Sequence record: NC_019423.1
Direction: 5' to 3' (one strand)
DNA from: Escherichia phage IME11
Length of the DNA: 64,000 nt
Position 1 is the stretch's first letter. The number at the start of each line of letters is the position of its first letter. The notes under the pieces were generated by a model that was not told where the DNA came from, made no database searches, and was given only the letters and a program-made list of their open reading frames with translations. Both the position numbers and the translations under genes were made by a program. Positions 18,401 to 35,448 of this stretch are shown one piece after another.

Positions 18401-21400
18401 AATGGAAACAGTGTTCCCTGTCTATAACAATGACAAGACACCGAGCCAGTTCCTTAAAGCATTTGCTCTGCCGGAAGAACCTAAGACTCGTACCATTGGT
18501 TCTGAATCTCCTTTGACTGATGTTAAGCAAGCACTGTCTTCTGCTGCTCGCTTTGAAGCATTCACACAAAAAGAAAATAACGCTCTCACGGGTGATGTGA
18601 TGAAACGTTATCAAGACTTACTAGGCTTTGGTGAAACTCTGAAGAGTACTCTGTCTGACCGTCTGGCTAAGTTCCTTGCTAACAAGAATGTTGGTAAACG
18701 TTTTGCAGAGGGTACTGAGGCTAACCGTTGGGTAGGTGGCAAACTGCTGAATATCGTTGAGAAAGATGGCGACACCTTTAAGTTCAACGACCAGTTGTTG
18801 GAGACTGCTGTACTTGCTGGATTGCAATGGCGATTAACTGCTACGCAGAATGCTGCCATTAAAGACATGAAAGACGTAGCTGCTATTACTGGTGTAGAAG
18901 TATCCTTGTTACCTGATGGTATTCTGGCTGACTTTGAGAATGCTCAGACCCTGGTTGAAGCTACTAACTCACTGGCCCAAAAGATTGAATCTTACTGGGG
19001 TTTGAATCGTAATCCAAATGCACCACTGGGTTATACCAAAGGTATCCCAATGGCAATGGCTACGGAGATTCTGTCTTCTCTCATTGAGATGGGTGAAGTT
19101 AAAGAGTCTATGCTGGATGTGTCTGAAATTGACCCAGCCTCCAATAAGACTGTTGGTCTGTATACTATTGAGAAGCTGGATGATAATGATGCCATTAATA
19201 ATTTTCCTACTGCTATTGAGGAAGCTGTCCTCGTAGAACCAGAAGAGAAAATGTACTTCGGTGATGATATTCCTTCCGTGGCTCAAACTCAGTTACGTAA
19301 CCCGGCTGTTAAGAATACCCCGGAACAGCAAGCTGCTCTTAAAGCAGAACAGGCTACTGAGTTCCGTGTACACATGCCTATGGTTAACTTCTATGAAGCA
19401 TTGGGTCGTGACAACATTCTGGAACTGATGGGTGCTGGTACTCTTAATCCTGAATTACTGAACGTAAACACTGCTAAATCATTGGAAGGTAAAAACCTGT
19501 CCGTGTCTATGGCATACGATTCCTTGTTTGGGGTAATCAATCAGGTTCAGGAACAGGAGAACGGACTGGATACACCTATTCACTATGGTTACAACATGAC
19601 CCGTGTAGGTCGTATGCAGATGCTTGGTAAGAATAACCCACAATCCAGTAAGCTGGTTCGTGAAGCAATTCTGCCAACCTTCTCTACTATCGACTTGAGT
19701 AATGAAAACAGCCAAACGTTCTCAGACTTCCAGTTAGGTCTGGCTCAGGCATTAGGCATCAAGGTACATAACATGTCCCGTGAAGCTATGTCTGAAAAGC
19801 TGACTAAAGCTCTGGAAGGTAATCTGAAACCTGCTGTTGATATGATGGTTGAGTTTGATAAGTCTGGTCACTTACCTACTGATGCAGTGGATATTCTGAA
19901 GACCTCTTTAGGTGGCGATAAATCATTCGTAGCTCTCATGGCTCTGATGGAATATGCCCGTTACCTGAATAGTAACGACCGTGCTAATTTTAATACCCCA
20001 CTGTACGTTGAAGCCGATGGTGTAACCAACGGACCAATTAACGCAATGGTATTAATGACCGGTGGTAAGTTCACTCCAGACTGGATTAAGAATACTGCTA
20101 AAGGTGGTTTGTTCTTCGGTAAAGCTGGTAAGACTATGAACGAGCATCGTTCACAGGATGACAGTGTTGACCTGTATGAAGCATCTACTAATGGTCTGCA
20201 ACAGGCACTTGGTGAATTACGTAGTACTTACCGTAACAACGTTCCTGTTATGAGCCAGATGAGTCATCTCCAGAAGTTAATGGACCTGTTCATCAAAGAC
20301 TTTAACCTGAATGAAGACGGTACACTGGACCTGAAACGTGGTATCGCTAAAAATCCACTAACCATTACCATCTATGGTTCTGGTGCTCGTGGTATTGCTG
20401 GCAAGATGGTTAGTGCAATTACTGATACCATCTACGAACGCTTCAGCGACGTTCTGCAAGCTCGTGCTGCTGACCCTAGCATTTCCCCGGCTATGGCAAT
20501 GTTTGGTAAGGAGGCTGCATCTGAGGCCGATGCTCAGGCTATGCTGGATACTTTCCTTACTTCTATGGAAGCACTGACTGGTAATGTTCCAGTTATGCGT
20601 AAGGGTGAGTTGTCTATTCAGCAAGCAGAAGGTGCTCTGACTGGTAAGTTAGACCCACAGAAGTTTACTGTATCTGGTAATGCCCTGAAGAACTTACAAG
20701 AGAACATGCTTCACCTGTTCGTTGAACCAATGCGTACTGGTATCCGAAATACTGTTGGTGAAGGTCTGATGCATTCTACTGAGAACTTACAGAAGGCTAC
20801 CCAGATTCAATCTCTGGTATTGCAGGATATGTTCCAACAAGCAGTACAGGCTAAACTGGCAGAAAAAGAAAAAGACCCAACATGGAAGAAAGGTGATTTC
20901 TTAACACAGAAAGAACTGAATGAAATTCAGGAATCATTATCTCCACTGGCTCCAATGATTGAGACTGGCTCACAGACTTTCTACATTGCTGGTAGTGAGA
21001 ACACTGATGTTGCTAACCAAGTACTGGCTACTAACTTAGATGACCGTATGCGTGTGCCAATGAGCATCTATGCTCCTTCACAAGCAGGTGTTGCAGGTAT
21101 TCCATTTATGACCATCGGTACTGGTGACGGCATGATGATGCAGACCCTTTCTACTATGAAAGGTGCTCCGAAGAATACCCTGAAAATCTTTGATGGTATG
21201 AACATTGGTATCAATGACATCACTGATGCAAGTCGTAAAGCTAATGAGGCTGTATATACTTCCTGGCAGGGTAACCCTATCAAGAATGTTTATGACTCCT
21301 TTGCTAAGTTCATGAAGAACGTAGACTTCAGCAAACTGTCTGATGAAACCAAACAGGCTATCGCTAAATCTGCTCTGGAATACGACCAGCGTGAGGGTGC

Positions 21401-24400
21401 TACTGATGACCTGTTACGTATTGGTGCTGAACAGATTGAACGTAATCTGCGTAACATTGCTCTGGGTGTAGATATTCGCCACAAGGTAATGAACCAGGTA
21501 CAGACTACTGTTGACCAGATGGCTGCTGTAGGTGCTCCTTATGTGAACAACGGTAAAATTTCTCTGGAAGGTCTGACTGTAGACCAACAAGTAGCTAAGC
21601 TGAACGAACTGTTTGATGTTGAATTAAACAAGCGTCGTGATGCAGTACGTGCTGCTAAAGCAGAACCAGTGAAAGAAGTACCAGCAATGGAACAGGTTGG
21701 TCGTGTACTGAAGTCTGGTGTACGTCTACTGTCTAATACTGCTATTACTAAGTTGGCTAAAGAGATGACTCCAGAACAGGCTGCTGTACTGAAAGAAGTA
21801 CAGAACTCCCTTGCTGCTAAAGACTACAAGGTTGTTTATGGCACTCCTTCTCAACTGGATGCCTACGCTATTGAGAAGAACATTACTCGCCCAGCACCGG
21901 AAGATATTGAAGCTGCTGAAGCTGGTAATGCATACGGCTGGACTAACTTTGATGATAAGACCATCTACTTAGTTACTCCTTCCTTAGAGACTCTGGTTCA
22001 TGAATTGGTACATGCTTCTACTTTTGAATCTGTACTGGCTCACTATGAAGGTACTCCTAATGAAGCAGTTCAGAATATTGAAGACCTGATGAACCAGTTC
22101 CGAACTCTGGATGTTAAGGATGAATCCCCGGCAGTACGTGAAGCATATGCTGATGCACTCAATACCATTAATGGTCACTTGTCTAATGGCTTTATTGAAC
22201 CAGCAATGGCTAAAGCTGCTGCACTGAATGAGTACATGGCATGGGGCTTAACCAACCGTGAACTGATTGGTAAGCAGAAGAAAACCACTGCACTTAAGGC
22301 CATGGTTCAGTCTGTGTATGAAGCAATCAAACGTCTGGTATTCGGACGTAAGAAAGCCCCTGCTAACGCAGATGATATGTTCTCTGGCTTACTGTTTAAC
22401 TCTTCTGTAGTTATGCGTGGGCAGGCTCCTACTGCTGCTGTAGCCAAGGACACTACTCTGTTCCATAACAAAGCATATGGTGACAATACTCGTCTGGAAG
22501 AGCTAGGGAAGACCTTCGATAAACTGATTACTAACTACATTGGTTCAGAACCAGTACAACAAGTAATTCGTAAAGGTAAGTTCTCTGATGCAGTAGTGAA
22601 TGCAACTAAAGTAACCCGTGATGTTCAGGCTCATGGCTTCACTATGAATATGCAGGAACAGCGTCTCTTTACTAACATTGTTGCTGCACTGGCTACCGAA
22701 GCTGCTATTAGTCCAGCTGCTCTGGCTCGTGCACAAGAATACTATGCACACGTAACCAAGAACCTGACTGTTGAAGCGTTCATGACTGACCCGGATAGTA
22801 CTAACCCTGCTGACCGTTACTACGCACAGCAGAAGTTCGATACCATCATGGGTGCTAACAACATTGAGTTTGATGCACAAGGTCGTTCTTCCTTACTGCC
22901 TACCTTTGTGGCACTGGCAATGGTAAGTGAAGATGTACGTAATGTGCTGGCTGACATTCCTGTTATGAAAGCAGATAAGCAATCCGGTAATACCGTTGAT
23001 GCAATGCTGACTAATATCGGTACTGCTGCAATGGCTAGTCTGAATGCTCGTGTAGCAGGTGATACTAAAGCTACCAATGTACAAGAAGGTATGGATGCAC
23101 TGGCTCAGACCATCATGCAGACCAGTCTTAATGCACAGTCATTCTATGATTCCGTCGCCACTCCTAGTGGTAATGCTATAGACCGTGCTAACCAGTATCT
23201 GGTGGACTCTATTGATGTACTGTCTACCCGTGCTTTAGAAGGTGCTCGTGAAGTTGCAGCTAATACCAAGAACCCGTTGGTTAAAGGTGCTGCTCATGCT
23301 GCACAACTGGTAGCTGCTATTGCTACAGAGAAGAATGGTGCAATCGTAGCTGAAGGTGTTATGGCTGCAATGAACCAGGGTAAAGCATGGCAACCTTTCC
23401 ACGACCTGGTTAATGACTTAACCGGACGTACTAAGAGCAATGCTTCTGTATATGATTTGATTAAAGCAGTTCGTGCACAGGTACAGGCTGACCGTCAACA
23501 GTTCCGTGAACACTTACCTACCACTATCGCATCCAAGTTCAGCCGTAAGCTGACTAATGATGAGTGGAAAGCAATGCATACCGGTATGGGTAAAACTGAC
23601 TTGGCTGTCCTGCGTGACACTATGTCTTTGGCTGAAATTCGTGACCTGCTGACTGACCAGAAGATTGTTGACCGTGAGGTGAATAAGCTGGAAGCAGATT
23701 TACAGAAACAAGCAGGACGTAACTGGCCTTTGATTAGCCGTAAATCTAAGCAACTGGCTCAGTACATGATTAACGGTACAGTCGGTAGTAACCTGCTGCG
23801 TAATGCTACTGCAATTTCTCGTATGCTGGGTGAACGACAGGCTGCACGTTCTACCGTAGATGTGGCTCAACTGGATAAGCTGATTACCTTGTATGCACTG
23901 GAAGCAATGAATAAGACTGACCGTGAGATGTTATCTTCACTGGCTCAGACAGAAATTGAAGGTATGGACTTTGCTACTTCTTATCTGGTTGGGCAGCGTA
24001 AAGATGAAATGGCTAAAGCCAAGTCTGATATGCGTGCAACCTTGAACCAGTACAAAGGACATATCCCCAGTGAAACTAAACAGGGTGTTAACCTGATTGT
24101 TGCTGAAGATAGTCAGTTTGCTGATTTGATTGAGAAGTCCTATGTACGTCTGGGTACTTATCAAGGTAGTTCTGCTAACCGTGGTCCAGCACGTAGCTAC
24201 TACTTTGCACCAGTACAGGCACAGGCTCCATTCTCACAGGGTATATTACAGAACGTTCGCAATACTGCTGGTGGTGTGGACCTTGGTACAGGCTTTACGA
24301 TGGGTTCCATGGTAGCAGGTCGTATCACTGACAAGCCTTCCGTAGACCGTATCACTAAAGCTCTGGCTCGTGGTGAACGTGGTAATGAACCACTGCTGCC

Positions 24401-25802
24401 TGTATATGATGACAAAGGGAATGTGGTTGCTTATGAGCAATCCATTGACCCTAACATGCTGAAGCACATTGAGGGTGAGAACCATCTTGCTCGTGCAATC
24501 GGTGTATGGCGTGGTCGTCAGGTAGAAGAGGCTAAGGCTCAGCGTTTCAACGATATGCTTATTGAGAACCTACATAGCATGTATGAGAACGACATTAAGA
24601 TGTCTGCCTCTAATAAGTCCCAGTACGTTAACCTTCTTGGTTCTAAACTGGACCCAGTAACTGCCGATGCTCTTAAGCTGATGAATAGTGAAACTCGTCA
24701 GAAAGCAGAAAGCCTGTTTGGCCCGGGTGAGTTGTGGGTACGTCGTGATATGCTCAACGATGCTCTTGGTTATCGTGCAGCTTCTGTAGGGGATGCCTGG
24801 TCTGGTAATTCTCGTTGGTCCCCAGAAACACTGGATACCTTCAAGAAAGCTATGCTAGGTGTATTTGGCAATCGTGCATATAAGTACACAATGGGTGGTG
24901 AGAACCTGGTTCAGAACTTAGTTAAAGAAGCTAAGACCCTGATTGTAGTTAAGTCAGTAGTCGTACCTGCAGTTAACTTCCTAGCTAACCTTTACCAGAT
25001 GGTTGCTCGTGGTGTACCGGTTAAGAACATTGCTAAGAGCATTCCACAGAAGACTGCTGAGATTAACCAGTACCTGAAATCTCGTCTACGTCAGGTAGAT
25101 GCAGAAGCAGAATTACGTGCAGCTACTAACCCGAACCAGATTCGTAAACTTAAGGCTGAGATTCAGTCCATCTCTGATAGCCATAAGCGTTTAAGTATCT
25201 GGCCTCTGTTAGAAGCTGGTGAGTTCTCTTCAATTGCAGATGCTGGTATCGGACGTGATGACATCCTTATTACTGAGGGTAAACTTCACGAATACATGGA
25301 TAAGCTGGCTGATAAGCTACCTAAGTCTGTACGTAACGCAGGTCGTTATGCACTTATCACTAAGGATACTGCTCTCTTCCAGGGTATCCAGAAGACGGTT
25401 GAGTACTCTGACTTTATCGCTAAAGCAATCATCTATGATGAACTGACTCAGCGTAAAGGTAAGACTCGTGAGGAAGCACTGGGACGTGTAACGGAAGAGT
25501 TCATTAACTATGATCGTTTACCTGGTCGCTTCCGTGGGTATATGGAAAGCATTGGCTTAATGTGGTTCTACAACTTTAAGATTCGTTCTGCAAAAGTTGC
25601 AGTGTCCATGATTCGTAATAACCCAGTACATGCTGCTATGGCTATGTTGGCTCCAACCCCTACCATGTTTGGTAATGTTGGTTTACCTATTCAGGACAAC
25701 ATCTTCAGCATTGCTGCACAGGGCAATCTCGGTTACTCCTTCGGTTTCGGTCAGGGCTTACGTGCCCATAACCTGAACCCTTGGCTCAATCTTACTAACT
25801 AA
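15432..25802 (+). CDS. virion-encapsidated RNA polymerase (N4 gp50-like vRNAP)
   Basis: Single 3456-aa ORF (10.4 kb); central region has T7-like single-subunit RNAP motifs (motif A-like LYVEADGVTNG, motif B-like KNPLTITIYGSGARG); size matches the roughly 3500-aa N4 vRNAP. Confidence 0.85.
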   Translation: MNRKHAMSTFDRLAGFADSITNAKQVDVSTATSQKQAAQGQSPFQLTPENAYNLQTGRVGNLGTGAFDPGSLQADFTQASPLEIINKYGNEQGLQILNSRANAADVVRQDLSKQRTNSEAFGDTLSGVGLGVANTLGGIAALGTGLVNDNAGASIASGMDWLNEGVHNLQSDALNATRKVVQNQNQISAQENQKLYEEDIKNGESSLVASLSRIGRDAFDSVANTLDNGMAASDGLSEGVGSLFTGGPLIRGVSALGKVMVGGDKAVKGITLAAELGSRPAQVALSAGRVAAPAVAIGGMEAGGAYQQTASEIMKMSHQELASKSPVYRQHIADGLSPDEARRQTASETGITAAGLTAPVAAATGPLVSRFELNPLKVGSLAGAGSNMLRETVEEGIQSGFGQFAQNTAIKENVDASRDTLKGVGEQAGLGALYGFGSAGVAQAPGATVKAAGAAVGPTVRTTLAGASLVGNALAKVASPITNILVQRGEEVAKRNEQASPVSDATVNAAAQEATAQAEQAQATVQEAVDAMDISPEEKAAATQYAADLTQAMKFDPVELEQANPAIREAVSGSTNRVEAIQKMADLVNTAEDPNIQMEAAIQMYDNIMSMDSFINRDPGALANLEQGSPAANIVDQFSGLMANVQNTPKVLRAFRAIHSMIQEQAEAGKLKATEEANQAQANNIAMAADMSPEVLDADSVNMVLKHASEGKITLGNRQRAALQSAAAVLQGAREFDAKAEELGLRPQDIVSKQIKTDESRSNEGQYSALQHAKRIRSAYNSGNFDLASAYLDDFMKFAQHMQNKVGALNEHLISGNADKNKSVHYQALSPSREWVRSRTGLGVNPYDTKSVKFAQQVGLEAKTVADIANALATAYPELNVSHVKVTPLDSRLDKPAAQVVKEFRQGNLDAAQSQQTNEPVNQVDESPAPVQEATTTVQPKTKPVVENKSAPVKDTSSKPEEVTTTESETVDTALTNEDTTQEVAETKTEMETVFPVYNNDKTPSQFLKAFALPEEPKTRTIGSESPLTDVKQALSSAARFEAFTQKENNALTGDVMKRYQDLLGFGETLKSTLSDRLAKFLANKNVGKRFAEGTEANRWVGGKLLNIVEKDGDTFKFNDQLLETAVLAGLQWRLTATQNAAIKDMKDVAAITGVEVSLLPDGILADFENAQTLVEATNSLAQKIESYWGLNRNPNAPLGYTKGIPMAMATEILSSLIEMGEVKESMLDVSEIDPASNKTVGLYTIEKLDDNDAINNFPTAIEEAVLVEPEEKMYFGDDIPSVAQTQLRNPAVKNTPEQQAALKAEQATEFRVHMPMVNFYEALGRDNILELMGAGTLNPELLNVNTAKSLEGKNLSVSMAYDSLFGVINQVQEQENGLDTPIHYGYNMTRVGRMQMLGKNNPQSSKLVREAILPTFSTIDLSNENSQTFSDFQLGLAQALGIKVHNMSREAMSEKLTKALEGNLKPAVDMMVEFDKSGHLPTDAVDILKTSLGGDKSFVALMALMEYARYLNSNDRANFNTPLYVEADGVTNGPINAMVLMTGGKFTPDWIKNTAKGGLFFGKAGKTMNEHRSQDDSVDLYEASTNGLQQALGELRSTYRNNVPVMSQMSHLQKLMDLFIKDFNLNEDGTLDLKRGIAKNPLTITIYGSGARGIAGKMVSAITDTIYERFSDVLQARAADPSISPAMAMFGKEAASEADAQAMLDTFLTSMEALTGNVPVMRKGELSIQQAEGALTGKLDPQKFTVSGNALKNLQENMLHLFVEPMRTGIRNTVGEGLMHSTENLQKATQIQSLVLQDMFQQAVQAKLAEKEKDPTWKKGDFLTQKELNEIQESLSPLAPMIETGSQTFYIAGSENTDVANQVLATNLDDRMRVPMSIYAPSQAGVAGIPFMTIGTGDGMMMQTLSTMKGAPKNTLKIFDGMNIGINDITDASRKANEAVYTSWQGNPIKNVYDSFAKFMKNVDFSKLSDETKQAIAKSALEYDQREGATDDLLRIGAEQIERNLRNIALGVDIRHKVMNQVQTTVDQMAAVGAPYVNNGKISLEGLTVDQQVAKLNELFDVELNKRRDAVRAAKAEPVKEVPAMEQVGRVLKSGVRLLSNTAITKLAKEMTPEQAAVLKEVQNSLAAKDYKVVYGTPSQLDAYAIEKNITRPAPEDIEAAEAGNAYGWTNFDDKTIYLVTPSLETLVHELVHASTFESVLAHYEGTPNEAVQNIEDLMNQFRTLDVKDESPAVREAYADALNTINGHLSNGFIEPAMAKAAALNEYMAWGLTNRELIGKQKKTTALKAMVQSVYEAIKRLVFGRKKAPANADDMFSGLLFNSSVVMRGQAPTAAVAKDTTLFHNKAYGDNTRLEELGKTFDKLITNYIGSEPVQQVIRKGKFSDAVVNATKVTRDVQAHGFTMNMQEQRLFTNIVAALATEAAISPAALARAQEYYAHVTKNLTVEAFMTDPDSTNPADRYYAQQKFDTIMGANNIEFDAQGRSSLLPTFVALAMVSEDVRNVLADIPVMKADKQSGNTVDAMLTNIGTAAMASLNARVAGDTKATNVQEGMDALAQTIMQTSLNAQSFYDSVATPSGNAIDRANQYLVDSIDVLSTRALEGAREVAANTKNPLVKGAAHAAQLVAAIATEKNGAIVAEGVMAAMNQGKAWQPFHDLVNDLTGRTKSNASVYDLIKAVRAQVQADRQQFREHLPTTIASKFSRKLTNDEWKAMHTGMGKTDLAVLRDTMSLAEIRDLLTDQKIVDREVNKLEADLQKQAGRNWPLISRKSKQLAQYMINGTVGSNLLRNATAISRMLGERQAARSTVDVAQLDKLITLYALEAMNKTDREMLSSLAQTEIEGMDFATSYLVGQRKDEMAKAKSDMRATLNQYKGHIPSETKQGVNLIVAEDSQFADLIEKSYVRLGTYQGSSANRGPARSYYFAPVQAQAPFSQGILQNVRNTAGGVDLGTGFTMGSMVAGRITDKPSVDRITKALARGERGNEPLLPVYDDKGNVVAYEQSIDPNMLKHIEGENHLARAIGVWRGRQVEEAKAQRFNDMLIENLHSMYENDIKMSASNKSQYVNLLGSKLDPVTADALKLMNSETRQKAESLFGPGELWVRRDMLNDALGYRAASVGDAWSGNSRWSPETLDTFKKAMLGVFGNRAYKYTMGGENLVQNLVKEAKTLIVVKSVVVPAVNFLANLYQMVARGVPVKNIAKSIPQKTAEINQYLKSRLRQVDAEAELRAATNPNQIRKLKAEIQSISDSHKRLSIWPLLEAGEFSSIADAGIGRDDILITEGKLHEYMDKLADKLPKSVRNAGRYALITKDTALFQGIQKTVEYSDFIAKAIIYDELTQRKGKTREEALGRVTEEFINYDRLPGRFRGYMESIGLMWFYNFKIRSAKVAVSMIRNNPVHAAMAMLAPTPTMFGNVGLPIQDNIFSIAAQGNLGYSFGFGQGLRAHNLNPWLNLTN

Positions 25803-25807
25803 ATAAA

Positions 25808-25832
25808 AAAGCCCCTCTAGTGAGGGGCTTTA
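25808..25832. terminator. bidirectional rho-independent terminator between convergent late and middle transcription units
   Basis: GCCCCTC-TAGT-GAGGGGC hairpin flanked by an A-run upstream and T-rich run downstream. Confidence 0.65.
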
Positions 25833-25834
25833 CT

Positions 25835-26071
25835 TTAGAATCTTTCAATTCGTTTATTTAGTACATATAGATAGGAACCCATAGCTTGATGTTGTAACCC
25901 AAGCAGGTATTTCTCTTCCGGTTCAATATCACGTGCTTTGGGACTGAGTAATAAATCACCTAAAGCTTCATACTTCTCTTTGAGATTATCTCTTTCCACT
26001 AATACTCTTACTTGATATGCTGCAAATGATTTAGTCATGTGTTCTCCACATCTTAGGCTTACGCCCTTCAC
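25835..26071 (-). CDS. hypothetical protein (78 aa)
   Basis: ORF at the distal end of the minus-strand gene block. Confidence 0.45.
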   Translation of the reverse strand: MKGVSLRCGEHMTKSFAAYQVRVLVERDNLKEKYEALGDLLLSPKARDIEPEEKYLLGLQHQAMGSYLYVLNKRIERF

Positions 26072-26264
26072 TTAGGAATTTACCAGTCTCCTTAATCTTC
26101 TGTAGTGTTTCCTCAGAAGGGAACCACAGGAATGAGAAGTAAAGTTTCTTAGCTACGTAACGAGTTACTCCTAGTTTCTCTGCGATTTCATCAAATGAAT
26201 ATGTACGGACGGTATTGTTGAGAATGGCCTCACGAACAACAGAGGTAATAGATACTTGTGTCAT
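26031..26264 (-). CDS. hypothetical protein (77 aa)
   Basis: ORF; overlaps the downstream ORF by 41 nt. Confidence 0.45.
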   Translation of the reverse strand: MTQVSITSVVREAILNNTVRTYSFDEIAEKLGVTRYVAKKLYFSFLWFPSEETLQKIKETGKFLSEGRKPKMWRTHD

Positions 26265-26274
26265 GCTATCTTCC

Positions 26275-26775
26275 TTACAGAATTACCCAGTCTTCTGCTA
26301 ATACATCTGATTGGGATGGAACCCAAGGCATAAACTGGTCATCGACAGTTTTGATTCCCAACCACGGGCGTGGCTTCAGTTCATCAGCAAATCCTGGACG
26401 CTCTAAGCTACTACTGTTCCAATCTTGAGCGTCAACGTACTCAACATACATTCCTTTTCCGTTCCAACCTTTGCGGGCTAGCTTGAATCCTGATTTGAGA
26501 AGCTCTACTGCATGACCAAAGGTACAACCTTTTTCTACGTCATGGTATGCAGCTTCGAATGCAGTTTTAGGTGACCAGCTAATATAGCCACGGAACTGAG
26601 GATGGTTGGACTTCGAGTCTGGATACTCAACTAAGTAACCTACTTCTAGCGGGTCTTCATCTGCTGGTACATCCCAGCCACGAAGTTTGCAGTATGTTTC
26701 TTTGTTCATCCGGAAACCATTTACACACTTGGTTCCGATATAGTTGGTGAAATGGACTTTAATTTCTTCTGACAT
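26275..26775 (-). CDS. two-domain protein; C-terminal region resembles DUF2829 (Tad2-like) family
   Basis: ORF track 26275..26913; Met at 26775 is preceded by GAGGT; C-terminal ARKGWNGKGMYV ... PWVPSQSDVLAEDWVIL resembles my memory of the DUF2829 signature, which I cannot verify here. Confidence 0.35.
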   Translation of the reverse strand: MSEEIKVHFTNYIGTKCVNGFRMNKETYCKLRGWDVPADEDPLEVGYLVEYPDSKSNHPQFRGYISWSPKTAFEAAYHDVEKGCTFGHAVELLKSGFKLARKGWNGKGMYVEYVDAQDWNSSSLERPGFADELKPRPWLGIKTVDDQFMPWVPSQSDVLAEDWVIL

Positions 26776-26784
26776 AACTACCTC

Positions 26785-26811
26785 AAATGATAAAGCCCTC
26801 ACTAGGAGGGC
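26785..26811 (-). terminator. rho-independent terminator
   Basis: GCCCTC-CTAGT-GAGGGC hairpin followed on the minus strand by TTTATCATTT. Confidence 0.45.
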
Positions 26812-26919
26812 TTGTTTTGTTTTGGCTTCTAAAGCCTTACCACATGTCGGGTAGTTCTGTACCTTTCGGTGAAAACTACCATATACCTGTTTGCTAAATG
26901 GTGCAACCACCACTAACTT

Positions 26920-27168
26920 TTATTTAGAATATTGCCCTTTCGTATACTCAATGAAGTATCCGAACTTAGCTTCATACTCTGTAGGGGGATGTTTGCTTAC
27001 ATGGTGTTTAGCCATACTAAGTAATTCCTTTTCCAACTTATTTACATTGATTGTATCTGCTGTTTCCCCAATAGGGAACTTATGGTGGTAAGCTGGTTCA
27101 GAAGTAATTTTTCCGCTTTTAGCTAAAACTTTAACGGAAGCAAACCCAACTTTAGGGTTTATATCCAT
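26920..27168 (-). CDS. hypothetical protein (82 aa)
   Basis: ORF, stop adjacent to the upstream gene. Confidence 0.5.
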   Translation of the reverse strand: MDINPKVGFASVKVLAKSGKITSEPAYHHKFPIGETADTINVNKLEKELLSMAKHHVSKHPPTEYEAKFGYFIEYTKGQYSK

Positions 27169-27617
27169 TAGATTTTACAACCCCCACCTTCACACTCATT
27201 ATTTTCCAGGAAGCCCTTCAGCATTTCTTGGCTCTGAGCTTGCTCATGCAGATTCTGCTTAAGCAGGTAACCTTCCAGTAACCAGACCTTATCGATTGCA
27301 TTTTCATAGGCAATCTTACGCCCAATTTCTTCGTTGAAGTTTCCCGGGGATGCACAGGCAGACTCACCAGTAACAGTGAAGCCATTCTCCAGAACCAGTA
27401 CACAGAAAGTCAGCAGAGATAGTGACTGTACTTCCTGGTTCTTAATGGTTGCTAAGTCTGGTAGTACAGATGCTGCACCATCCAGGCCAGTAAAGAAGTA
27501 AGTACCAAGTACTTTACTCTTGATGTGGTCAGGGGTAATGCGTGGAGCTTTATCAGCACCAGCTTCTTTAATCTGTTGTTCGAGTTCCATAGATTCCTCA
27601 GTGTTTATGTTATTCAA
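27168..27617 (-). CDS. hypothetical protein (149 aa)
   Basis: ORF directly downstream of the tRNA-like cluster and its terminator. Confidence 0.5.
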   Translation of the reverse strand: MNNINTEESMELEQQIKEAGADKAPRITPDHIKSKVLGTYFFTGLDGAASVLPDLATIKNQEVQSLSLLTFCVLVLENGFTVTGESACASPGNFNEEIGRKIAYENAIDKVWLLEGYLLKQNLHEQAQSQEMLKGFLENNECEGGGCKI

Positions 27618-27618
27618 A

Positions 27619-27655
27619 TAAAAAAGTCCCCCAGAGGGGCGACTCTAGGGGACTT
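27619..27655 (-). terminator. rho-independent terminator downstream of the tRNA-like cluster
   Basis: Minus strand reads GTCCCC...CCCCTCTGGGGGAC followed by TTTTTTATTT. Confidence 0.55.
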
Positions 27656-27898
27656 AGTACTATTTACCCATAGCTGGGAGGCTTTTGGTTCTTACCACGA
27701 AGACAGTCCACGCTGACTAGGCTTGGGATTGATAGTCCCGTTCCTGTGGTAATTACTCAGGCTAGGATTTAAGGAGTTCCTATTCTCCAGCGAAATTCCC
27801 GTCGAGGGGAATAACAATACAATAGCAGTCACTGGACTGTCTTACCAGTGTTGTCTTTAGAGTGCTATGCAATCAGGACTATGTTACTGCTGAATGGG

Positions 27899-27972
27899 TG
27901 TCCACTACTGGATTTGAACCAGTGACTTTCCGATTATTAGTCGGTTGCTTTCCCCGTCTAAGCTAAGTGGAC
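27899..27972 (-). tRNA. tRNA gene, apparent anticodon AAT (Ile-reading) by hand folding
   Basis: Minus strand GTCCACT-TA-GCTT-AGACGGGGA-AAGC-A-ACCGA-CTAATAA-TCGGA-AAGTC-ACTGG-TTCAAAT-CCAGT-AGTGGAC-A: 7-bp acceptor stem, D arm, canonical 7-nt anticodon loop with U33, T arm with TTCAAAT loop. Confidence 0.6.
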
Positions 27973-27978
27973 TTATTA

Positions 27979-28054
27979 TGGTTACCCAGGCAGGATTCGA
28001 ACCTGCGTCCTAGTTGGTTTACTAGTGGGGCTTTACCACTAAGCCTACTGGGTA
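27979..28054 (-). tRNA. tRNA-like gene with encoded CCA and non-canonical anticodon arm
   Basis: Minus strand TACCCAG...GCAGG-TTCGAAT-CCTGC-CTGGGTA-A-CCA: perfect acceptor, D and T arms, but the anticodon region (CCACTAGTAAACCAACTAGGAC) pairs only as CTAG/CTAG with a 6- or 8-nt loop. Confidence 0.5.
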
Positions 28055-29675: not shown

Positions 29676-30116
29676 TTAACTACGTTTCAGGCCAGCGAAC
29701 AGTGAAGGTTTCGCAGCAGGTTTCTCTACTGGTTCTTCAGCCTTAACTTCTTCCTGCACAACTTCTTCTTGTGCTTCTGGTTCAGCTACTGCTTCTTCTT
29801 CAGGTTCCGGCGTAGAACTCTCGTTCTGACCACCAGTAGAGGTCTGGGTTTCTTCTACCTTTACCTCTTCAACTACTTCTTCCGGCTCTGGTTCTACCGG
29901 GCGATGTTTAGCTTCTTGAGGGTTCTTACGAGAACGGCGAGTTTTCTTCTCTACTCCCACGGGTGGAGTATCTTCATGAACCTCTTCGTTGATGCCAACG
30001 GAGGCAGTACCATCTGCATTGATGACAATACTAATGTCACCAGCAAGATTGATTTGATCATCGACATAAGCCTGTACAGCAGCTTCTACTTCGGACTGGT
30101 TCAAAATGATTTGCAT
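29676..30116 (-). CDS. hypothetical protein with small N-terminal domain and long acidic Glu/Pro/Val-rich tail
   Basis: 146-aa ORF; residues about 50-130 are low-complexity acidic repeats; abuts the resolvase gene. Confidence 0.5.
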   Translation of the reverse strand: MQIILNQSEVEAAVQAYVDDQINLAGDISIVINADGTASVGINEEVHEDTPPVGVEKKTRRSRKNPQEAKHRPVEPEPEEVVEEVKVEETQTSTGGQNESSTPEPEEEAVAEPEAQEEVVQEEVKAEEPVEKPAAKPSLFAGLKRS

Positions 30117-30117
30117 A

Positions 30118-30672
30118 TTACGCCTTTAATAACTTAATGAGGTTCTGGAAAGCTGAGAGATTTACACCAGCATGTATTGCACCGATTGCATCTGCTAAGT
30201 GCTCATTCTTATTCAGAAGTTTACCCTTCTTATCAGTGAGCCAGTTGGCTTCAGGATAGATGGCATGAGCAGCACGAATCATCGTGTCTTTGGATGCAGT
30301 TTTATCACCGACCAGTGCAAGTTTGTTTTCAATTGGGGATACTTCAAAGATTGGACAACCCAATGCACGAAATGCACCTATTAATCCTACGCATACGCCA
30401 TATGATTTCATACCGTTAGCAGACTGAGAGCCTACTGGTACTTCTACGAATACTGCTTTAGCAGATCGTAACCATTCTTCACAACCAAGAAACAAATCGT
30501 GAGCGGCTTGTATATCTTTGGAGTTGGTTCGAACTTGTTTGTTGTGGTCAACTTCAGTTTGAACCAGTTTAAGTTCGACCTGCTCGAAGACGCCGGACTC
30601 AATGTCCAGCATCCCACGAGCTAAACCCCAATTGCGGAGACTAATGTCTGCACCGACAATTGGGATTTTCAT
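30118..30672 (-). CDS. RuvC-like Holliday junction resolvase
   Basis: 184 aa; N-terminal IVGADISLRNWGLA (RuvC-like first catalytic Asp region) and C-terminal HLADAIGAIHAG resembling the RuvC DAADA motif. Confidence 0.55.
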   Translation of the reverse strand: MKIPIVGADISLRNWGLARGMLDIESGVFEQVELKLVQTEVDHNKQVRTNSKDIQAAHDLFLGCEEWLRSAKAVFVEVPVGSQSANGMKSYGVCVGLIGAFRALGCPIFEVSPIENKLALVGDKTASKDTMIRAAHAIYPEANWLTDKKGKLLNKNEHLADAIGAIHAGVNLSAFQNLIKLLKA

Positions 30673-31469
30673 TATTTCTTACCGAACAGTGATTTACCAC
30701 CAGCAGGAGTAGTACCTGTGCCAGCACCTGGTTTAGGAGGCAATCCACCTTTACCATTACCACCGGCAGAACTCTTAGTTTTATCACGAGTCTTGCCTTT
30801 GTTCTTCTCCAACCATGCTGCATGGAATACAGCCAGTTCTGGGGTCAGTTCTTTTTCAGCCTTCTCTGCTTCCTGAGCCTCAACGACTGTGACCAGCAGT
30901 TCCGGGTGAAACACTTTCTGAATCTCGTTTACTTCACGGGTTTCACCGGAGTCAACGTAACCGTTGTCACCCTTGACCTGCTTAGCTTCCAGAACCTTTT
31001 CCAGAGCAAAGGTAACAGTCTGTCCAACCAGTTCAACCGGAACCATGACAGACTTATTAACTTCTGCTTTAGCGTCGAAATCGTAGACTTTAACAATCTT
31101 CTCTTCGAAATCTGCTTCAGGCAGTTCAGTACCAGTTGCCATCAGCATCATGTCATTAATGACAGTGTAGCCAGGCAGGAAGTACTCTTTACCGTTCTTC
31201 TCGTAAGTTGGCTTGTTGCCTTTAGCATTACCGGAAGTGAAGTACACCTGGGCACGGAACTCACCGGCAGGTACGCCATCAGAGTTCTTCAAGTTTTCAA
31301 TAATTAACTGCATCCAGTCTGCACCAGAGTCAGCTTTACCTACGTAAGCTACTTTTACAGTACCGGTGTAGATATCGGATTCTTTTGCACCGAAGCCACC
31401 ACCACCCAGGGAGTCTTTAACAGCTTCAACGTTTTTGGTTTTTTCTTTCAGATTACTGAACAATGACAT
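30672..31469 (-). CDS. single-stranded DNA-binding protein candidate (N4 SSB-like)
   Basis: 265 aa (N4 SSB is about 265 aa, from memory); Gly/Pro-rich flexible C-terminal tail GGNGKGGLPPKPGAGTGTTPAGG; position in replication module; no OB-fold motif confirmed by eye. Confidence 0.45.
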   Translation of the reverse strand: MSLFSNLKEKTKNVEAVKDSLGGGGFGAKESDIYTGTVKVAYVGKADSGADWMQLIIENLKNSDGVPAGEFRAQVYFTSGNAKGNKPTYEKNGKEYFLPGYTVINDMMLMATGTELPEADFEEKIVKVYDFDAKAEVNKSVMVPVELVGQTVTFALEKVLEAKQVKGDNGYVDSGETREVNEIQKVFHPELLVTVVEAQEAEKAEKELTPELAVFHAAWLEKNKGKTRDKTKSSAGGNGKGGLPPKPGAGTGTTPAGGKSLFGKK

Positions 31470-31508: not shown

Positions 31509-32261
31509 TTAAGCGTAGTATTCAGCCAGATGGTCTAAGAGTTTCTGGGCATCGTTGTCGATATAAGTCTCGGACTTATCGAACATACCCATTGGGGAAC
31601 GAAGTCGTTTGCCAACTGACTTCTTGGTTGGACGGGTCTGGAATACGTGCTTATACCCTAAGTCACGTTCTTCTTCCGTAATTTCAAGCATCTTGTTCCC
31701 ATACTTCTCCAGTTCTTTAATGTCTACGCGTTCTGCGTAAACTACTGTAGAGAAGTAGGCTTCAAGTCCGTTATTCTTCAGGGAGCCTTTCACTGGGATG
31801 AATGTTTTAATCACACCAGCAGCTTCATCCAGTTCGTCTTTAGCATGTGCAGTAATGATTACTGGCTTACCAAATTTAACAACTTTCTGTTGTAGCAGTA
31901 CTTTAAAGAATTGTGCAAAGTCCCCCCAAGCCTTTTGCGTATTTGCAGAAGGCAGAACATACTGTGATTCCAGCATGTCCATCATGAAGGTTGCTGAGTC
32001 AATAATGATACCATCAACATCGTCTGCCATTTCTCCACCCGGAGATGCAACATCAAATGCTTCCCAGATTTGATATGGGTCTTCAATGTTATAAGTGTTG
32101 AACTTGTTACGGAAAGGCAGACGCTTACCTGCTTCAGTATTCAGATATAACCAGCGTTCCTGGTTCCGGATGTTGCGCAGTGATGCTGATTTACCACTCG
32201 CTGAGAATCCTGCAATCAGGATTAGCTGAGTGTTCATATCATTGGAGATTTCTTCGGACAT
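31509..32261 (-). CDS. P-loop NTPase (recombination/replication-associated ATPase candidate)
   Basis: 250 aa; Walker A-like GFSASGKS near the N-terminus; Walker B-like hydrophobic stretch ending in D (GIIIDSA). Confidence 0.5.
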   Translation of the reverse strand: MSEEISNDMNTQLILIAGFSASGKSASLRNIRNQERWLYLNTEAGKRLPFRNKFNTYNIEDPYQIWEAFDVASPGGEMADDVDGIIIDSATFMMDMLESQYVLPSANTQKAWGDFAQFFKVLLQQKVVKFGKPVIITAHAKDELDEAAGVIKTFIPVKGSLKNNGLEAYFSTVVYAERVDIKELEKYGNKMLEITEEERDLGYKHVFQTRPTKKSVGKRLRSPMGMFDKSETYIDNDAQKLLDHLAEYYA

Positions 32262-34471: not shown

Positions 34472-35448
34472 GATGGAAAATATCTCTCTCTTTGTTTGCA
34501 AATGGACGCGACAGGGCAGTACAGACAACGCTTAACCTGCCCCTCCACGACCTTGATAGCACCCTTGCCACCTTTTTCAGCCATGAAGATACGGGCAGAT
34601 GACATATCGTCAAAGTTTTTAGTACTTCTGGCTCCAGGTACATCTACCTTAGAAGCATCAGAGAAGTATTTGAACTGTGGCTCTGTTCGCCACAACTCCT
34701 CGTCAGTACATTCAGGGATTTGCTCTTCAGGAGCATCCCAGTACTTCTCAATGAGGTGAATCTTCTCTTCTACCCAACGTTCAGTCTTCTCGACAGATAG
34801 CAACGGAATATCCTTATGCATAATACGATTAGCAGGATAATTCGGATTGCTATTAGCCATGTGTTTCATGAAGTCAGTGAAGATGTAGTTAATACGAATT
34901 ACATCCTCGGTAATGATGTCGTTGTGAATCCAACGATACAAGCTACCTTGCATCTTGTGTTCATCATCACGGGAACCAGCAACCCAGGAATAGGTTGAGG
35001 TAGACTTAAAGTCTTGCAACAGACCTTCTGTTACGATGTCGAACTTACCACCGATAGTCCAACCCTTAACTATCTTGGTTCCACGTTGTTCAATGTAGAT
35101 TGGAATAATGTCAGGGTTAGCATCAAAGTCTGCTTTGGTTGGGTTAATGACTACTGCATCAATTACTCGTTGAGGATAACCCAACTTCTTCAATGCAGTC
35201 TTATGACCTAGCTTCCAGGCTTTCTCGATAGAGTCATGTAAGCCAGTACCCATTGATGTGGAGACGAAATCCATAACATCAATAGACTGGTCACTGAAAT
35301 CTACACGATGTTTCATGACAATTTGCTTAAGAGGTTTAAGCAATGTAGTAGCAGACAGATACTTAGGATTGTCTACGTAATCATACTCATCATGCAATAG
35401 CCATACAGCCAGAGCCAGTGAGACATCATGGTTGTTGGTTATCTTCAT
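34468..35448 (-). CDS. PD-(D/E)XK-type nuclease candidate with C-terminal Cys cluster (Cas4/RecB-like exonuclease)
   Basis: 326 aa; C-terminal C-x2-C-x5-C (CLYCPVASIC) as in Fe-S nucleases; central GKFDIVTEG...LQDFK resembles a D...(E/Q)xK core. Confidence 0.4.
   Translation of the reverse strand: MKITNNHDVSLALAVWLLHDEYDYVDNPKYLSATTLLKPLKQIVMKHRVDFSDQSIDVMDFVSTSMGTGLHDSIEKAWKLGHKTALKKLGYPQRVIDAVVINPTKADFDANPDIIPIYIEQRGTKIVKGWTIGGKFDIVTEGLLQDFKSTSTYSWVAGSRDDEHKMQGSLYRWIHNDIITEDVIRINYIFTDFMKHMANSNPNYPANRIMHKDIPLLSVEKTERWVEEKIHLIEKYWDAPEEQIPECTDEELWRTEPQFKYFSDASKVDVPGARSTKNFDDMSSARIFMAEKGGKGAIKVVEGQVKRCLYCPVASICKQRERYFPS

What the first reader, a model, noticed from the sequence alone, without database searches (positions are those of the whole stretch)
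26275..26775. Possible Tad2-like (DUF2829) anti-defence domain fused to an unknown N-terminal domain
The C-terminal half (ARKGWNGKGMYVEYVD ... PWVPSQSDVLAEDWVIL) resembles my recollection of the DUF2829 family, which includes the Thoeris anti-defence protein Tad2. The 80-aa N-terminal domain is unassigned. If confirmed, this phage may carry a nucleotide-signal sponge against host signalling-based defence.
Basis: inference. Interest (0 to 1): 0.55.

Follow-up and report, generated by a model that had tools for sequence, protein, structure and literature searches.

The report
Tad2 sponge with sponge-associated N-domain
This phage gene encodes a confirmed Tad2-type protein predicted to soak up bacterial immune alarm molecules, joined to a small uncharacterised domain that occurs almost only attached to such "sponge" proteins and so is a good lead for a new anti-immunity module.

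Summary
Window 26275-26775 (minus strand) is a 166-aa gene with a GAGG ribosome-binding site. Residues 84-166 are a Tad2 (PF11195/DUF2829) domain: Pfam E=4.8e-24, phmmer E~3e-21 to the ModTad2 and Tad2 crystal structures, and a predicted fold that matches Tad2 structures. Eight of the ten SPO1 Tad2 gcADPR-contact residues are identical. The gene lies in the published N4-like "anti-signalling hotspot" between the primase and virion RNA polymerase genes, next to an Acb4-like and a Sequestin-like sponge gene. Close relatives are already annotated as DUF2829/Tad2-like, so this part is a new member of a known family.

The N-terminal domain (residues ~10-80) is more interesting. It has no Pfam, NCBIfam or PDB match. 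It is a confident small SH3/Tudor-like barrel and belongs to a family of 2,634 representative clusters. About 100 of the best 150 members are fused to known sponge domains (Tad2, Sequestin, Acb4, Acb2/Tad1). Lockin and RyR Tad fusions also exist, as do stand-alone forms. It is homologous (hhalign 96.5%) to the "unknown fold" N-domain of RyR Tad, which forms a domain-swapped dimer and showed no anti-type I Thoeris activity alone. Its function is unresolved. The ligand of the Tad2 domain cannot be read from sequence.

The parts
26275..26775 (-). Complete CDS (166 aa plus stop) of the two-domain N-domain/Tad2 protein
   Evidence: Full-length match to phrog_872, E=1.4e-65. 2,727 homologues.
26278..26526 (-). 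Tad2-like sponge domain, residues 84-166
   Evidence: PF11195 E=4.8e-24, residues 85-165. PDB Tad2 hits. Foldseek E~6e-7 with TM 0.73-0.88 normalised to the target. Pocket residues W104, N105, I141, T143, D145, W151, S154, S156, D157 mapped from SPO1 Tad2. W104, N105, T143, W151, S154 and D157 are invariant in 30 homologues.
26536..26748 (-). Sponge-associated N-terminal domain, residues ~10-80 (beta-beta-alpha-beta-beta-alpha, small SH3/Tudor-like barrel)
26781..26784 (-). Shine-Dalgarno GAGG, 5 nt upstream of the ATG
   Evidence: Read directly from the sequence.
26793..26813 (-). Terminator-like G+C-rich hairpin followed by a T-rich run, between the upstream 82-aa ORF and this gene
   Evidence: Nine terminator-like sites found in the region against 2.2 expected.
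25835..26038 (-). Neighbouring Sequestin-like (PF21825, crAss001_48) gene, 67 aa from the internal ATG; the mechanical ORF extends to 26071
   Evidence: PF21825 E=7.2e-17. PF21825 is the Sequestin 3'cADPR sponge according to bioRxiv 10.1101/2025.07.12.664507.
27168..27617 (-). Neighbouring Acb4-like (PF13876, N4 gp49/Sf6 gp66 family) gene
   Evidence: PF13876 E=1.2e-29. PDB 9e4w Acb4, E=7e-4. PF13876 is equated with Acb4.

Best explanation
The gene encodes a two-domain anti-signalling protein in the hotspot that N4-like phages keep between their primase and virion RNA polymerase genes.

Shown: the C-terminal half is a member of the Tad2 family and retains the ADPR-signal pocket.

Inferred from solved Tad2 proteins: it assembles as a homotetramer and sequesters TIR-made ADPR-derived alarm molecules, so the Thoeris effector is never switched on. 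The most likely ligands are His-ADPR and/or 3'cADPR. A second pocket for a cyclic mononucleotide, as in ModTad2, is possible.

Shown: the N-terminal half belongs to a large, highly conserved family that occurs alone or fused to at least six unrelated sponge families. It is homologous to the N-domain of RyR Tad.

Inferred: it forms a domain-swapped dimer, as in the RyR Tad crystal. My leading guess is that it is an autonomous module with a binding activity of its own, most plausibly for a small conserved ligand. That would make this a dual-function protein like the known Acb4-Tad2 fusions. I put this last step at about 0.3 on its own. The confidence given below refers to the Tad2-sponge core.
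For: Tad2 core:
- Pfam 85.1 bits against a cut-off of 25.
- phmmer 3e-21 to ModTad2/Tad2 and 4e-14 to SPO1 Tad2.
- Foldseek returns only Tad2 structures at E<=1e-3.
- SPO1 contacts W25, N26, I63, T65, D67, W73, S76 and D79 are identical in the query, T78 becomes S, and H71 becomes M. The HgmTad2 residues whose mutation abolishes gcADPR binding (W21/N22; S90/T92/D93) correspond to W104/N105 and S154/S156/D157.
- Nearest tested relatives are ModTad2 at 50% identity and SPO1 Tad2 at 47%.

Context:
- The primase-to-vRNAP hotspot is described as holding Tad2, Acb4 and Sequestin. The window has an Acb4-like and a Sequestin-like gene flanking this one.

N-domain:
- 2,634 representatives.
- Of the best 150: PF21825 40, PF11195 39, PF13876 14, Acb2/Tad1 hairpin 6, and only 3 other Pfam hits. 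My own reclassification gives Tad2 49, Sequestin 40, Acb4 14, and 9 stand-alone.
- phrog_9467 is N-domain plus Acb4, and phrog_32732 is N-domain plus Sequestin.
- Lockin fusions appear in Table S4 of Tal et al..
- RyR Tad homology: hhalign 96.5%, E=7.5e-10. That domain forms a domain-swapped dimer in the crystal.
- One stand-alone copy is followed 3 nt later by an Acb4 gene.
- Eight invariant polar residues (K16, E40, E50, D53, N57, S66, S68, K70) are conserved among 14 sequences, the window's domain plus 13 stand-alone homologues. Homologues occur in phages of hosts ranging from Escherichia and Vibrio to Clostridium.
Against: - There are no binding or plaque data for this protein or for any N-domain/Tad2 fusion. 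All 18 Tad2 proteins tested by Hadary et al. lack the N-domain motif.
- Tad2 specificity cannot be predicted from these residues: ModTad2 keeps the same core yet does not block type I Thoeris.
- For the N-domain, the only experiment on a homologue is negative. gp68_N (residues 1-86) had no apparent activity against type I Thoeris, and gp68_C alone was sufficient. That homologue is divergent, however, and in the hhalign alignment it lacks several canonical invariants such as E50, N57 and K70.
- Tal et al.'s structure-guided sponge pipeline did not report this family, and it is absent from their table of tested candidates.
- No multimer model or pocket analysis could be run.
- The linker between the domains is only about 5 residues, so compatibility with the Tad2 tetramer interface along helix alpha-1 is assumed, not shown.
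Confidence: 0.75

Rival explanations
1. The Tad2 domain is the only active part. The N-domain is a passive domain-swapped dimerisation or stabilisation scaffold that cross-braces sponge oligomers and has no target of its own.
For: In RyR Tad the homologous domain contributes to dimerisation by strand swapping, had no activity alone, and was dispensable for type I Thoeris inhibition. According to the cited papers, all partner families form even-numbered oligomers (Sequestin dimers; Tad2 and Acb4 tetramers; Tad1 and Acb2 hexamers; Lockin hexamers), which a dimeriser could brace.
Against: Stand-alone 73-90-aa genes are maintained in many phages, some with no recognisable sponge neighbour. Eight polar or charged residues are invariant among the window's domain and 13 stand-alone homologues, which is more than a scaffold needs. 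The negative experiment used a divergent member and, as reported, only one defence system.
Confidence: 0.3
2. The N-domain is a protein-binding inhibitor in the manner of Tad3-Tad8, which bind ThsB TIR domains or Thoeris effectors. The fusion would then attack signalling at both the enzyme and the signal.
For: Tad3-Tad8 are described as direct binders of TIR domains or effectors. Tad3 is listed among the residents of the N4-like hotspot. The weak fold neighbours include protein-binding Tudor/SH3-like domains such as the CarD and Mfd RNAP-interacting domains and the UvrD C-terminal domain.
Confidence: 0.12
3. The N-domain is a counter-counter-defence module that deals with a liability shared by all sponges, for example triggering decoy-signal systems such as Panoptes. 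That would explain why it travels with every sponge family.
For: Panoptes is activated when Acb2, Tad1/2 or Acb4 sequester its decoy 2',3'-c-di-AMP. The N-domain's partners are exactly those families plus the other sponges. This is the only property the partners are known to share.
Against: This is purely inferential. Stand-alone copies without a nearby sponge exist. No mechanism is evident for a 70-aa domain.
Confidence: 0.07
4. The protein is an anti-CRISPR of the AcrIIA7 type, as DUF2829 proteins and neighbouring genes are labelled in some GenBank records.
For: phmmer hits PDB chains named AcrIIA7 or 'Inhibitor of Type II CRISPR-Cas system' (9kzr 1.8e-11, 8kbi 5e-11). Related phages carry 'anti-CRISPR protein' annotations in this locus.
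Against: The Tad2 papers state that Cas9 binding was never demonstrated for the DUF2829 protein and that multiple DUF2829 proteins are gcADPR sponges. AcrIIA7 itself, as HgmTad2, binds gcADPR and cGG. The 'anti-CRISPR' label in PV933157 sits on the Acb4-family gene, not this one.
Confidence: 0.03

Closest known systems
ModTad2 (Myroides odoratus prophage Tad2; PDB 8v3e apo, 9eib with His-ADPR)
   Same: Best sequence match to the C-terminal domain: 50% identity over 80 residues with one single-residue gap, phmmer E=3e-21. Same fold. The insertion after strand beta-2 is of similar length.
   Different: ModTad2 is an 88-aa single-domain protein. [quoted passage not shown] Whether the window protein shares that specificity is unknown. 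The window protein has an extra 80-aa N-domain.
SPO1 Tad2 (gp34.65; PDB 8sme/8smf/8smg, 8wje)
   Same: 47% identity. Eight of the ten named gcADPR-contact or water-coordinating residues are identical and one is a conservative change. TM-score up to 0.88 normalised to the target.
   Different: SPO1 Tad2 is 89 aa with a single domain. H71 becomes M149 and T78 becomes S156 in the window protein. It comes from a Bacillus myovirus.
RyR Tad (gp68 of Pectobacterium N4-like phage vB_PatP_CB1; bioRxiv 10.64898/2026.06.04.730250)
   Same: Same N-terminal domain family (hhalign 96.5%, E=7.5e-10, 69 columns). Same two-domain logic of an N-domain followed by a sponge domain. Same primase-to-vRNAP hotspot.
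   Different: Its C-terminal sponge is a ryanodine-receptor Repeat12-like helical domain, not Tad2. Its N-domain is divergent (about 30% identity) and lacks several residues that are invariant in the canonical family.
Sponge-sponge fusions: Acb4-Tad2 (Pasteurella phage Pm86), Tad2-Sequestin, Acb4-Sequestin (Ab09 gp59)
   Same: One polypeptide carries a Tad2 or other sponge domain plus a second small module. They are encoded in phage anti-defence loci. The Acb4-Tad2 fusion is active against both targets.
   Different: In those fusions both modules are proven sponges. Here the second module has no demonstrated ligand.
DUF1653 (PDB 3be3) and Tudor/SH3-like RNAP-interacting domains (CarD, Mfd, UvrD C-terminal domain)

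Membership tests
Tad2 (Pfam PF11195 / DUF2829) | Matches the family profile above the curated gathering score | tested here: met
   85.1 bits against a cut-off of 25, E=4.8e-24, profile positions 2-72 of 73.
Tad2 (Pfam PF11195 / DUF2829) | [quoted passage not shown] | tested here: met
   AF2 model with pLDDT 87.7. The 24 Foldseek PDB hits at E<=1e-3 are all Tad2-family chains, with TM 0.60-0.88 normalised to the target.
Tad2 (Pfam PF11195 / DUF2829) | Conserved ADPR-signal pocket (SPO1 W25, N26, I63, T65, D67, H71, W73, S76, T78, D79; HgmTad2 W21/N22 and S90/T92/D93) | tested here: met
   Eight identical, one conservative (T to S) and one changed (H to M), by the alignment and the residue lists. 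W104, N105, T143, W151, S154 and D157 are invariant in 30 homologues.
Tad2 (Pfam PF11195 / DUF2829) | Homotetramer with ligand pockets at protomer interfaces | not testable with these tools
   No multimer prediction was available. Assumed from homology.
Tad2 (Pfam PF11195 / DUF2829) | Binds and sequesters an immune signal, and expression cancels the cognate defence | not testable with these tools
   Needs biochemistry and plaque assays. No N-domain-bearing Tad2 was among the 18 tested homologues.
N4-like anti-signalling hotspot (Fedorova et al. 2026) | Located between the DNA primase-polymerase and virion RNA polymerase genes, together with other signalling inhibitors | tested here: met
   vRNAP at 15432-25802. 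A PriCT_1 primase at 32318-34528 and an AAA_24 protein at 31509-32261. Acb4-like and Sequestin-like neighbours. Definition of the hotspot.
RyR Tad N-terminal domain family (unnamed) | Sequence homology to gp68 residues 1-70 | tested here: met
   hhalign probability 96.5%, E=7.5e-10, 69 aligned columns. BLASTP of the window domain against gp68 gives E=7e-5.
RyR Tad N-terminal domain family (unnamed) | Domain-swapped dimer through strand beta-1 | not testable with these tools
   Only a monomer model could be made. It has the strands needed for a five-stranded sheet.
Immune-signal sponge (criteria of Tal et al. 2025), applied to the N-domain | Short phage protein that also occurs fused to known sponges | tested here: met
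   Stand-alone forms of 73-90 aa. Fusions to Tad2, Sequestin, Acb4, Acb2/Tad1, Lockin and RyR.
Immune-signal sponge (criteria of Tal et al. 2025), applied to the N-domain | Homo-oligomer with positively charged pockets at protomer interfaces, and ligand binding | not testable with these tools
   No multimer model, coordinates or binding assay. The only related experiment (gp68_N against type I Thoeris) was negative.
Lockin / Acb5 / TadIV-1, considered for the N-domain | Sequence membership in the published homologue sets, or matching distribution | tested here: not met
   The N-domain motif is absent from the Acb5 table and from the tested-candidate table. In the Lockin table it occurs only as an extra N-terminal module on two proteins. 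Tal et al. found no Lockin in INPHARED genomes, whereas the N-domain is in 120 phage records. TadIV-1 is described as two-helical and confined to Straboviridae.
Tad3, considered for the N-domain | Similarity to the Tad3 protein of Yirmiya et al. 2025 | not testable with these tools
   The paper is not held and no sequence was available. Indirect evidence against: Fedorova et al. annotate Tad3 but call the gp68 N-domain an unknown fold.
DUF1653, considered for the N-domain | Match to the Pfam family profile | tested here: not met
AcrIIA7 anti-CRISPR | Inhibition or binding of Cas9 | not testable with these tools
   Sequence similarity exists, but the literature reassigns the family to signal sponges.

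The most novel reading that the evidence does not exclude
The conserved N-terminal domain (motif GYLVEY...GYISWSPK..FE.AY) is a new, widespread anti-defence module in its own right. It could be a further family of immune-signal sponge for a ligand its partners do not cover, or a universal sponge accessory. It was missed so far because it has no Pfam model, and because the only homologue tested was a divergent one assayed against a single system. If so, the roughly 44 of 150 family representatives whose fusion partners match nothing known would be a ready list of further undiscovered sponge families.
Probability: 0.3. Interest if true: 0.8.

Novelty: new variant of a known kind. Interest (0 to 1): 0.55.

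Why it matters
The Tad2 assignment adds one more sponge to a coliphage locus that already holds Acb4-like and Sequestin-like genes. That is useful for predicting which signalling defences (Thoeris, Pycsar, CBASS) this group of therapeutic-candidate N4-like phages can evade.

The larger point concerns the N-domain. Fusion to known sponges is the criterion that led to the discovery of Sequestin, and this domain meets it more strongly than any other family seen here: about two-thirds of its best representatives are fused to four to six unrelated sponge families. Yet it has no name, no Pfam model and no assigned function. It can be tested directly with existing assays, and a close homologue is present in the BASEL collection phage AlfredRasser.

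Tried and rejected
- I first recalled that the N-domain was the N4 gp49/Sf6 gp66 family (PF13876). That was wrong: PF13876 hits the separate neighbouring gene at 27168-27617, not this domain.
- PDB profile searches with A2 and with the N-domain-only A3 gave only coiled-coil noise or nothing.
- NCBIfam and PADLOC gave nothing.
- The published Nature paper on His-ADPR and the Cell paper on Tad3-8 are not held. As a result, the residues of the ModTad2 His-ADPR pocket and the Tad3 sequence could not be compared.
- I tried to infer ligand specificity from the nearest tested Tad2 homologues. The top matches have different specificities at similar identity, so this was inconclusive.
- The sigma-70 promoter scan of the locus found no more sites than expected by chance.
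- Clustering the unknown fusion partners gave mostly singletons and some truncated known sponges, with no dominant new family.

Full report
**1. The observation**

The finding's coordinates describe a real gene on the minus strand. The mechanical ORF runs 26275..26913 from a GTG. The start supported by homologues is the ATG at 26775, which has GAGG five bases upstream. A terminator-like hairpin at 26793-26813 sits inside the longer reading frame.

A search of 5.8 billion proteins returned 2,727 homologues at E<=1e-3. All but one of the 120 best cover at least 92% of the query at 46-93% identity. The two-domain protein is therefore a conserved, widespread entity. PHROGs has a full-length family for it, phrog_872, with E=1.4e-65.

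**2. Source of the window**

The adjacent 3,456-aa ORF (15432-25802, plus strand) is a virion RNA polymerase. The closest records by megablast are G7C-like Escherichia, Shigella and Klebsiella phages of the genus Gamaleyavirus, family Schitoviridae. In those records the orthologue is annotated "DUF2829 domain-containing protein" (phages 24-32N and ECBP1) or "Thoeris anti-defense 2-like protein" (Shigella phage Moonfish gp18), and otherwise "hypothetical protein".

**3. The C-terminal domain is Tad2**

- Pfam PF11195 (Tad2-like) matches residues 85-165 at 85.1 bits against a cut-off of 25, E=4.8e-24.
- phmmer against all PDB chains hits ModTad2 (9eib) and M. odoratus Tad2 (8v3e) at about 3e-21, SPO1 Tad2 at 4e-14, AcrIIA7/HgmTad2 at 1e-11, and SptTad2 at 6e-9.
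- An AF2 model of the whole protein (pLDDT 87.7) finds only Tad2-family chains in the PDB at E<=1e-3, with TM-scores of 0.60-0.88 normalised to the target.
- The Tad2 paper names ten SPO1 residues that contact 1''-3' gcADPR or coordinate pocket waters. By the alignment they map as follows:

| SPO1 Tad2 | Window protein |
|---|---|
| W25 | W104 |
| N26 | N105 |
| I63 | I141 |
| T65 | T143 |
| D67 | D145 |
| H71 | M149 |
| W73 | W151 |
| S76 | S154 |
| T78 | S156 |
| D79 | D157 |

Eight are identical and one is a conservative change. W104, N105, T143, W151, S154 and D157 are invariant across 30 diverse homologues. The HgmTad2 mutants that lose gcADPR binding (W21A/N22A and S90A/T92A/D93A) hit the equivalent positions. 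On every test available here, membership of the Tad2 family is met.

**4. Which signal it binds**

This cannot be decided from sequence. Tad2 proteins have been shown to bind 3'cADPR and 2'cADPR (SPO1), His-ADPR plus cUMP/cCMP (ModTad2), N7-cADPR (Tad2_71), and cGG/cGAMP (HgmTad2, SptTad2).

I aligned the window's Tad2 domain to every tested homologue in Table S2 of Hadary et al. The ranking was ModTad2 first (50% identity), then SPO1 Tad2 (47%), then Tad2_82 (type I Thoeris), then Tad2_71 (types I, II and IV). ModTad2 does not block type I Thoeris although it shares the same core residues, so specificity must depend on finer detail.

By my reading of the alignments, the insertion after strand beta-2 is about 24 residues. 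That resembles ModTad2 and SPO1 Tad2 and is shorter than the 35-41 residues Li et al. associate with cyclic-dinucleotide binding.

**5. The locus is a sponge island**

A 2025 preprint shows that PF21825 (crAss001_48) is "Sequestin", a 3'cADPR sponge. It also equates PF13876 (N4 gp49/Sf6 gp66) with the Acb4 anti-CBASS sponge, and reports that Tad2, Acb4 and Sequestin are often fused to one another.

In the window, a PF13876 protein lies two genes upstream at 27168-27617 (E=1.2e-29; PDB Acb4 9e4w, E=7e-4). A PF21825 protein lies two genes downstream at 25835-26038 (E=7e-17).

A 2026 preprint defines an "anti-signalling hotspot" in N4-like phages between the primase-polymerase and the virion RNA polymerase. 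It lists Tad2, Tad3, Acb4, Sequestin, Bes1 (RuvC-like) and Bes2 as residents. The window matches this layout. Reading from the primase towards the polymerase, all genes on the minus strand:

| Coordinates | Gene or feature |
|---|---|
| 32318-34528 | PriCT_1 primase |
| 31509-32261 | AAA_24 protein |
| 30672-31469 | 265-aa ORF, no Pfam hit |
| 30118-30672 | 184-aa ORF, equivalent by position and length to the "RuvC-like resolvase" of phage 24-32N |
| 29676-30116 | 146-aa ORF, no Pfam hit |
| 27897-28054 | two tRNA genes |
| 25835-27617 | the sponge cluster (Acb4-like, 82-aa ORF, N-domain/Tad2, 77-aa ORF, Sequestin-like) |

The locus ends at a hairpin shared with the convergent polymerase gene.

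**6. The N-terminal domain**

Residues 1-83 have no hit in Pfam (E<=10), NCBIfam or PADLOC. Neither the single sequence nor an N-domain-only profile hits any PDB chain at E<=10.

The sequence is strikingly conserved. In an alignment of the window's domain with 13 stand-alone homologues, the invariant residues are Y12, K16, M23, Y28, W34, P37, E40, G46-E50, D53, N57, G63, Y64, S66-K70 and F73. Homologues occur in phages of Escherichia, Vibrio, Klebsiella, Pseudomonas, Rhizobium and Clostridium hosts, among others.

**7. The N-domain travels with sponges**

- A word-indexed search with residues 1-83 found stand-alone proteins of 73-90 aa (for example in Erwinia phage phiEaP8), many ~140-aa fusions to PF21825, and fusions to PF11195.
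- PHROG cross-matching shows that phrog_9467 is N-domain plus Acb4 and phrog_32732 is N-domain plus Sequestin.
- An exhaustive hmmsearch with an N-domain-only profile against 1.84 billion representatives found 2,634 proteins at E<=1e-3 and 1,320 at E<=1e-10.
- Pfam scanning of the best 150 gave PF21825 in 40, PF11195 in 39, PF13876 in 14, the Acb2/Tad1 hairpin (PF24729) in 6, and only three other hits (WDGH, AP2, HNH).
- My own iterative classification found Tad2 in 49, Sequestin in 40, Acb4 in 14 and Tad1-like in 4. Nine were stand-alone and about 44 had partners that matched nothing. It also found triple fusions such as N-domain plus Acb4 plus Sequestin, and cases where the domain is C-terminal or internal. 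Several of the "unknown" partners look like truncated Tad2, Sequestin or Acb4.
- The supplementary tables of Tal et al. contain 94 occurrences of the SWSPK motif in the stored part of the Sequestin homologue table, and two proteins with a variant N-domain in the Lockin homologue table. There are none in the Acb5 table or the tested-candidate table.
- One stand-alone copy is followed 3 nt later by a 94-aa Acb4 gene, a split form of the fusion. Two others have no recognisable sponge neighbour.
- N-domain/Tad2 fusions also occur outside N4-like phages: in the P22-like phage Kapi1 and in Vibrio phage 36E38.1.

**8. What is already known about the N-domain**

The 2026 preprint characterises "RyR Tad", gp68 of the N4-like Pectobacterium phage CB1. 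[quoted passage not shown] It reports that gp68_N (residues 1-86) had no apparent activity against type I Thoeris, whereas the RyR-like C-terminal half sufficed. In the crystal the N-domain forms a domain-swapped dimer through strand beta-1.

I fetched gp68 and compared it with the N-domain profile. hhalign gives 96.5% probability, E=7.5e-10, over 69 columns spanning the whole domain. The BFVD fold search had independently hit the related Yersinia phage TG1 RyR-domain protein. So this is the same family, and RyR becomes a further sponge partner.

gp68's copy is divergent (about 30% identity) and lacks several canonical invariants such as E50, N57 and K70. As reported, it was assayed against one system only. 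I therefore treat the negative result as informative but not decisive for the canonical family.

I found no paper that reports the domain's near-exclusive association with sponge families. [quoted passage not shown] None of the 18 Tad2 proteins they tested carries the N-domain motif: 17 are 60-108 aa, and the one longer protein (Tad2_73, 158 aa) has a different N-terminal extension.

**9. Mechanism**

*Shown:* Tad2 family membership with an intact pocket; location in the hotspot; N-domain homology and its fusion pattern.

*Inferred for the Tad2 domain:* it tetramerises and sequesters a TIR-derived ADPR-type signal, preventing activation of the Thoeris effector. Relevant systems exist in Escherichia: a type IV Thoeris in E. 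coli 328, a Pycsar in E. coli E831 and a CBASS in E. albertii.

*Inferred for the N-domain:* it dimerises. Three observations lead me to favour an autonomous binding function, most plausibly for a small conserved ligand, at roughly 0.3:
- it is maintained as a stand-alone gene;
- it keeps many invariant polar and aromatic residues;
- it occurs in phages of very different hosts.

The alternatives are a pure scaffold (about 0.3), a protein-binding inhibitor of the Tad3 type (about 0.12), and a module that offsets a shared cost of sponges such as triggering Panoptes (about 0.07). No multimer modelling, coordinates or assays were available to separate these.

**10. Verdict**

The Tad2 part is an ordinary new member of a known and increasingly well-mapped family, and it is already annotated as such in related genomes. 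The added value lies in the N-domain: a large, unnamed family whose members are overwhelmingly fused to immune-signal sponges. That is the same kind of evidence that led to the discovery of Sequestin, and its function is still open.

Noticed in passing
window 25835-26071 (-): Sequestin-like gene (PF21825, crAss001_48; E=7e-17). It probably starts at the ATG at 26038, giving 67 aa. The orthologue in Shigella phage Moonfish is annotated 'putative ATPase subunit of terminase', which looks like a misannotation.
   Followed up: partly
window 27168-27617 (-): Acb4-like gene (PF13876, E=1.2e-29; PDB 9e4w Acb4, E=7e-4). The orthologue in phage 24-32N is annotated 'anti-CRISPR protein'. Together with Tad2 and Sequestin, this makes three sponge families within 1.8 kb.
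   Followed up: partly
window 26031-26264 (-) and 26920-27168 (-): Two small ORFs (77 aa, phrog_9565, with weak HTH-like Pfam hits; 82 aa, phrog_29724) lie between the sponge genes. Neither matches Pfam above threshold, NCBIfam or PADLOC. By position they are candidate anti-defence genes.
   Followed up: partly
window 25808-25831, 26793-26813, 27624-27655 (-): Similar G+C-rich hairpins followed by T runs flank the sponge genes (nine terminator-like sites against 2.2 expected). Related phages share different subsets of this 1.9-kb stretch. Both features suggest cassette-like, mosaic exchange within the hotspot.
   Followed up: no
window 27897-27972 and 27979-28054 (-): Two adjacent tRNA genes inside the hotspot. 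One is tRNA-Ile with anticodon AAT. ARAGORN could not assign the anticodon of the other (Rfam tRNA score 42.8 bits).
   Followed up: no
window 30118-30672 (-): A 184-aa ORF that corresponds by position and length to the 'RuvC-like Holliday junction resolvase' of phage 24-32N. It is possibly an orthologue of Bes1, the RuvC-like broad signalling-evasion protein of Pseudomonas phage Ab09. Pfam and NCBIfam gave no hit.
   Followed up: partly
L005:2495-2740 (Erwinia phage Fifi051 gp23): An 81-aa stand-alone N-domain gene directly beside the vRNAP gene is annotated 'virion RNA polymerase' in GenBank, evidently a misannotation. It occupies the same end of the hotspot where the window has Sequestin.
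   Followed up: partly
proteins P0239/P0346, P0256/P0342, P0270/P0330, P0322/P0345 and about 35 singletons: C-terminal partners of the N-domain that match no known sponge family or Pfam model. Given the company the N-domain keeps, these are candidates for undiscovered sponge or anti-defence families.
   Followed up: partly
Table S1 of bioRxiv 10.1101/2025.07.12.664507 (Pseudomonas prophage Sequestin homologues): A short variant of the N-domain of about 45 aa (IGTKQI.AWEQDKDGQPGY.VKYADGY.SWSPKDVFE.AY) lacks the helix and the RGW.VPADE loop. It is fused to Sequestin, so the family has a minimal form and an extended form.
   Followed up: no
PDB entry listed as 35tm_A: A 139-aa 'Ryanodine receptor Ryr domain-containing protein' whose RyR-like part starts at about residue 70. 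It may be a solved phage or bacterial RyR Tad relative. The N-domain profile did not hit it.
   Followed up: partly
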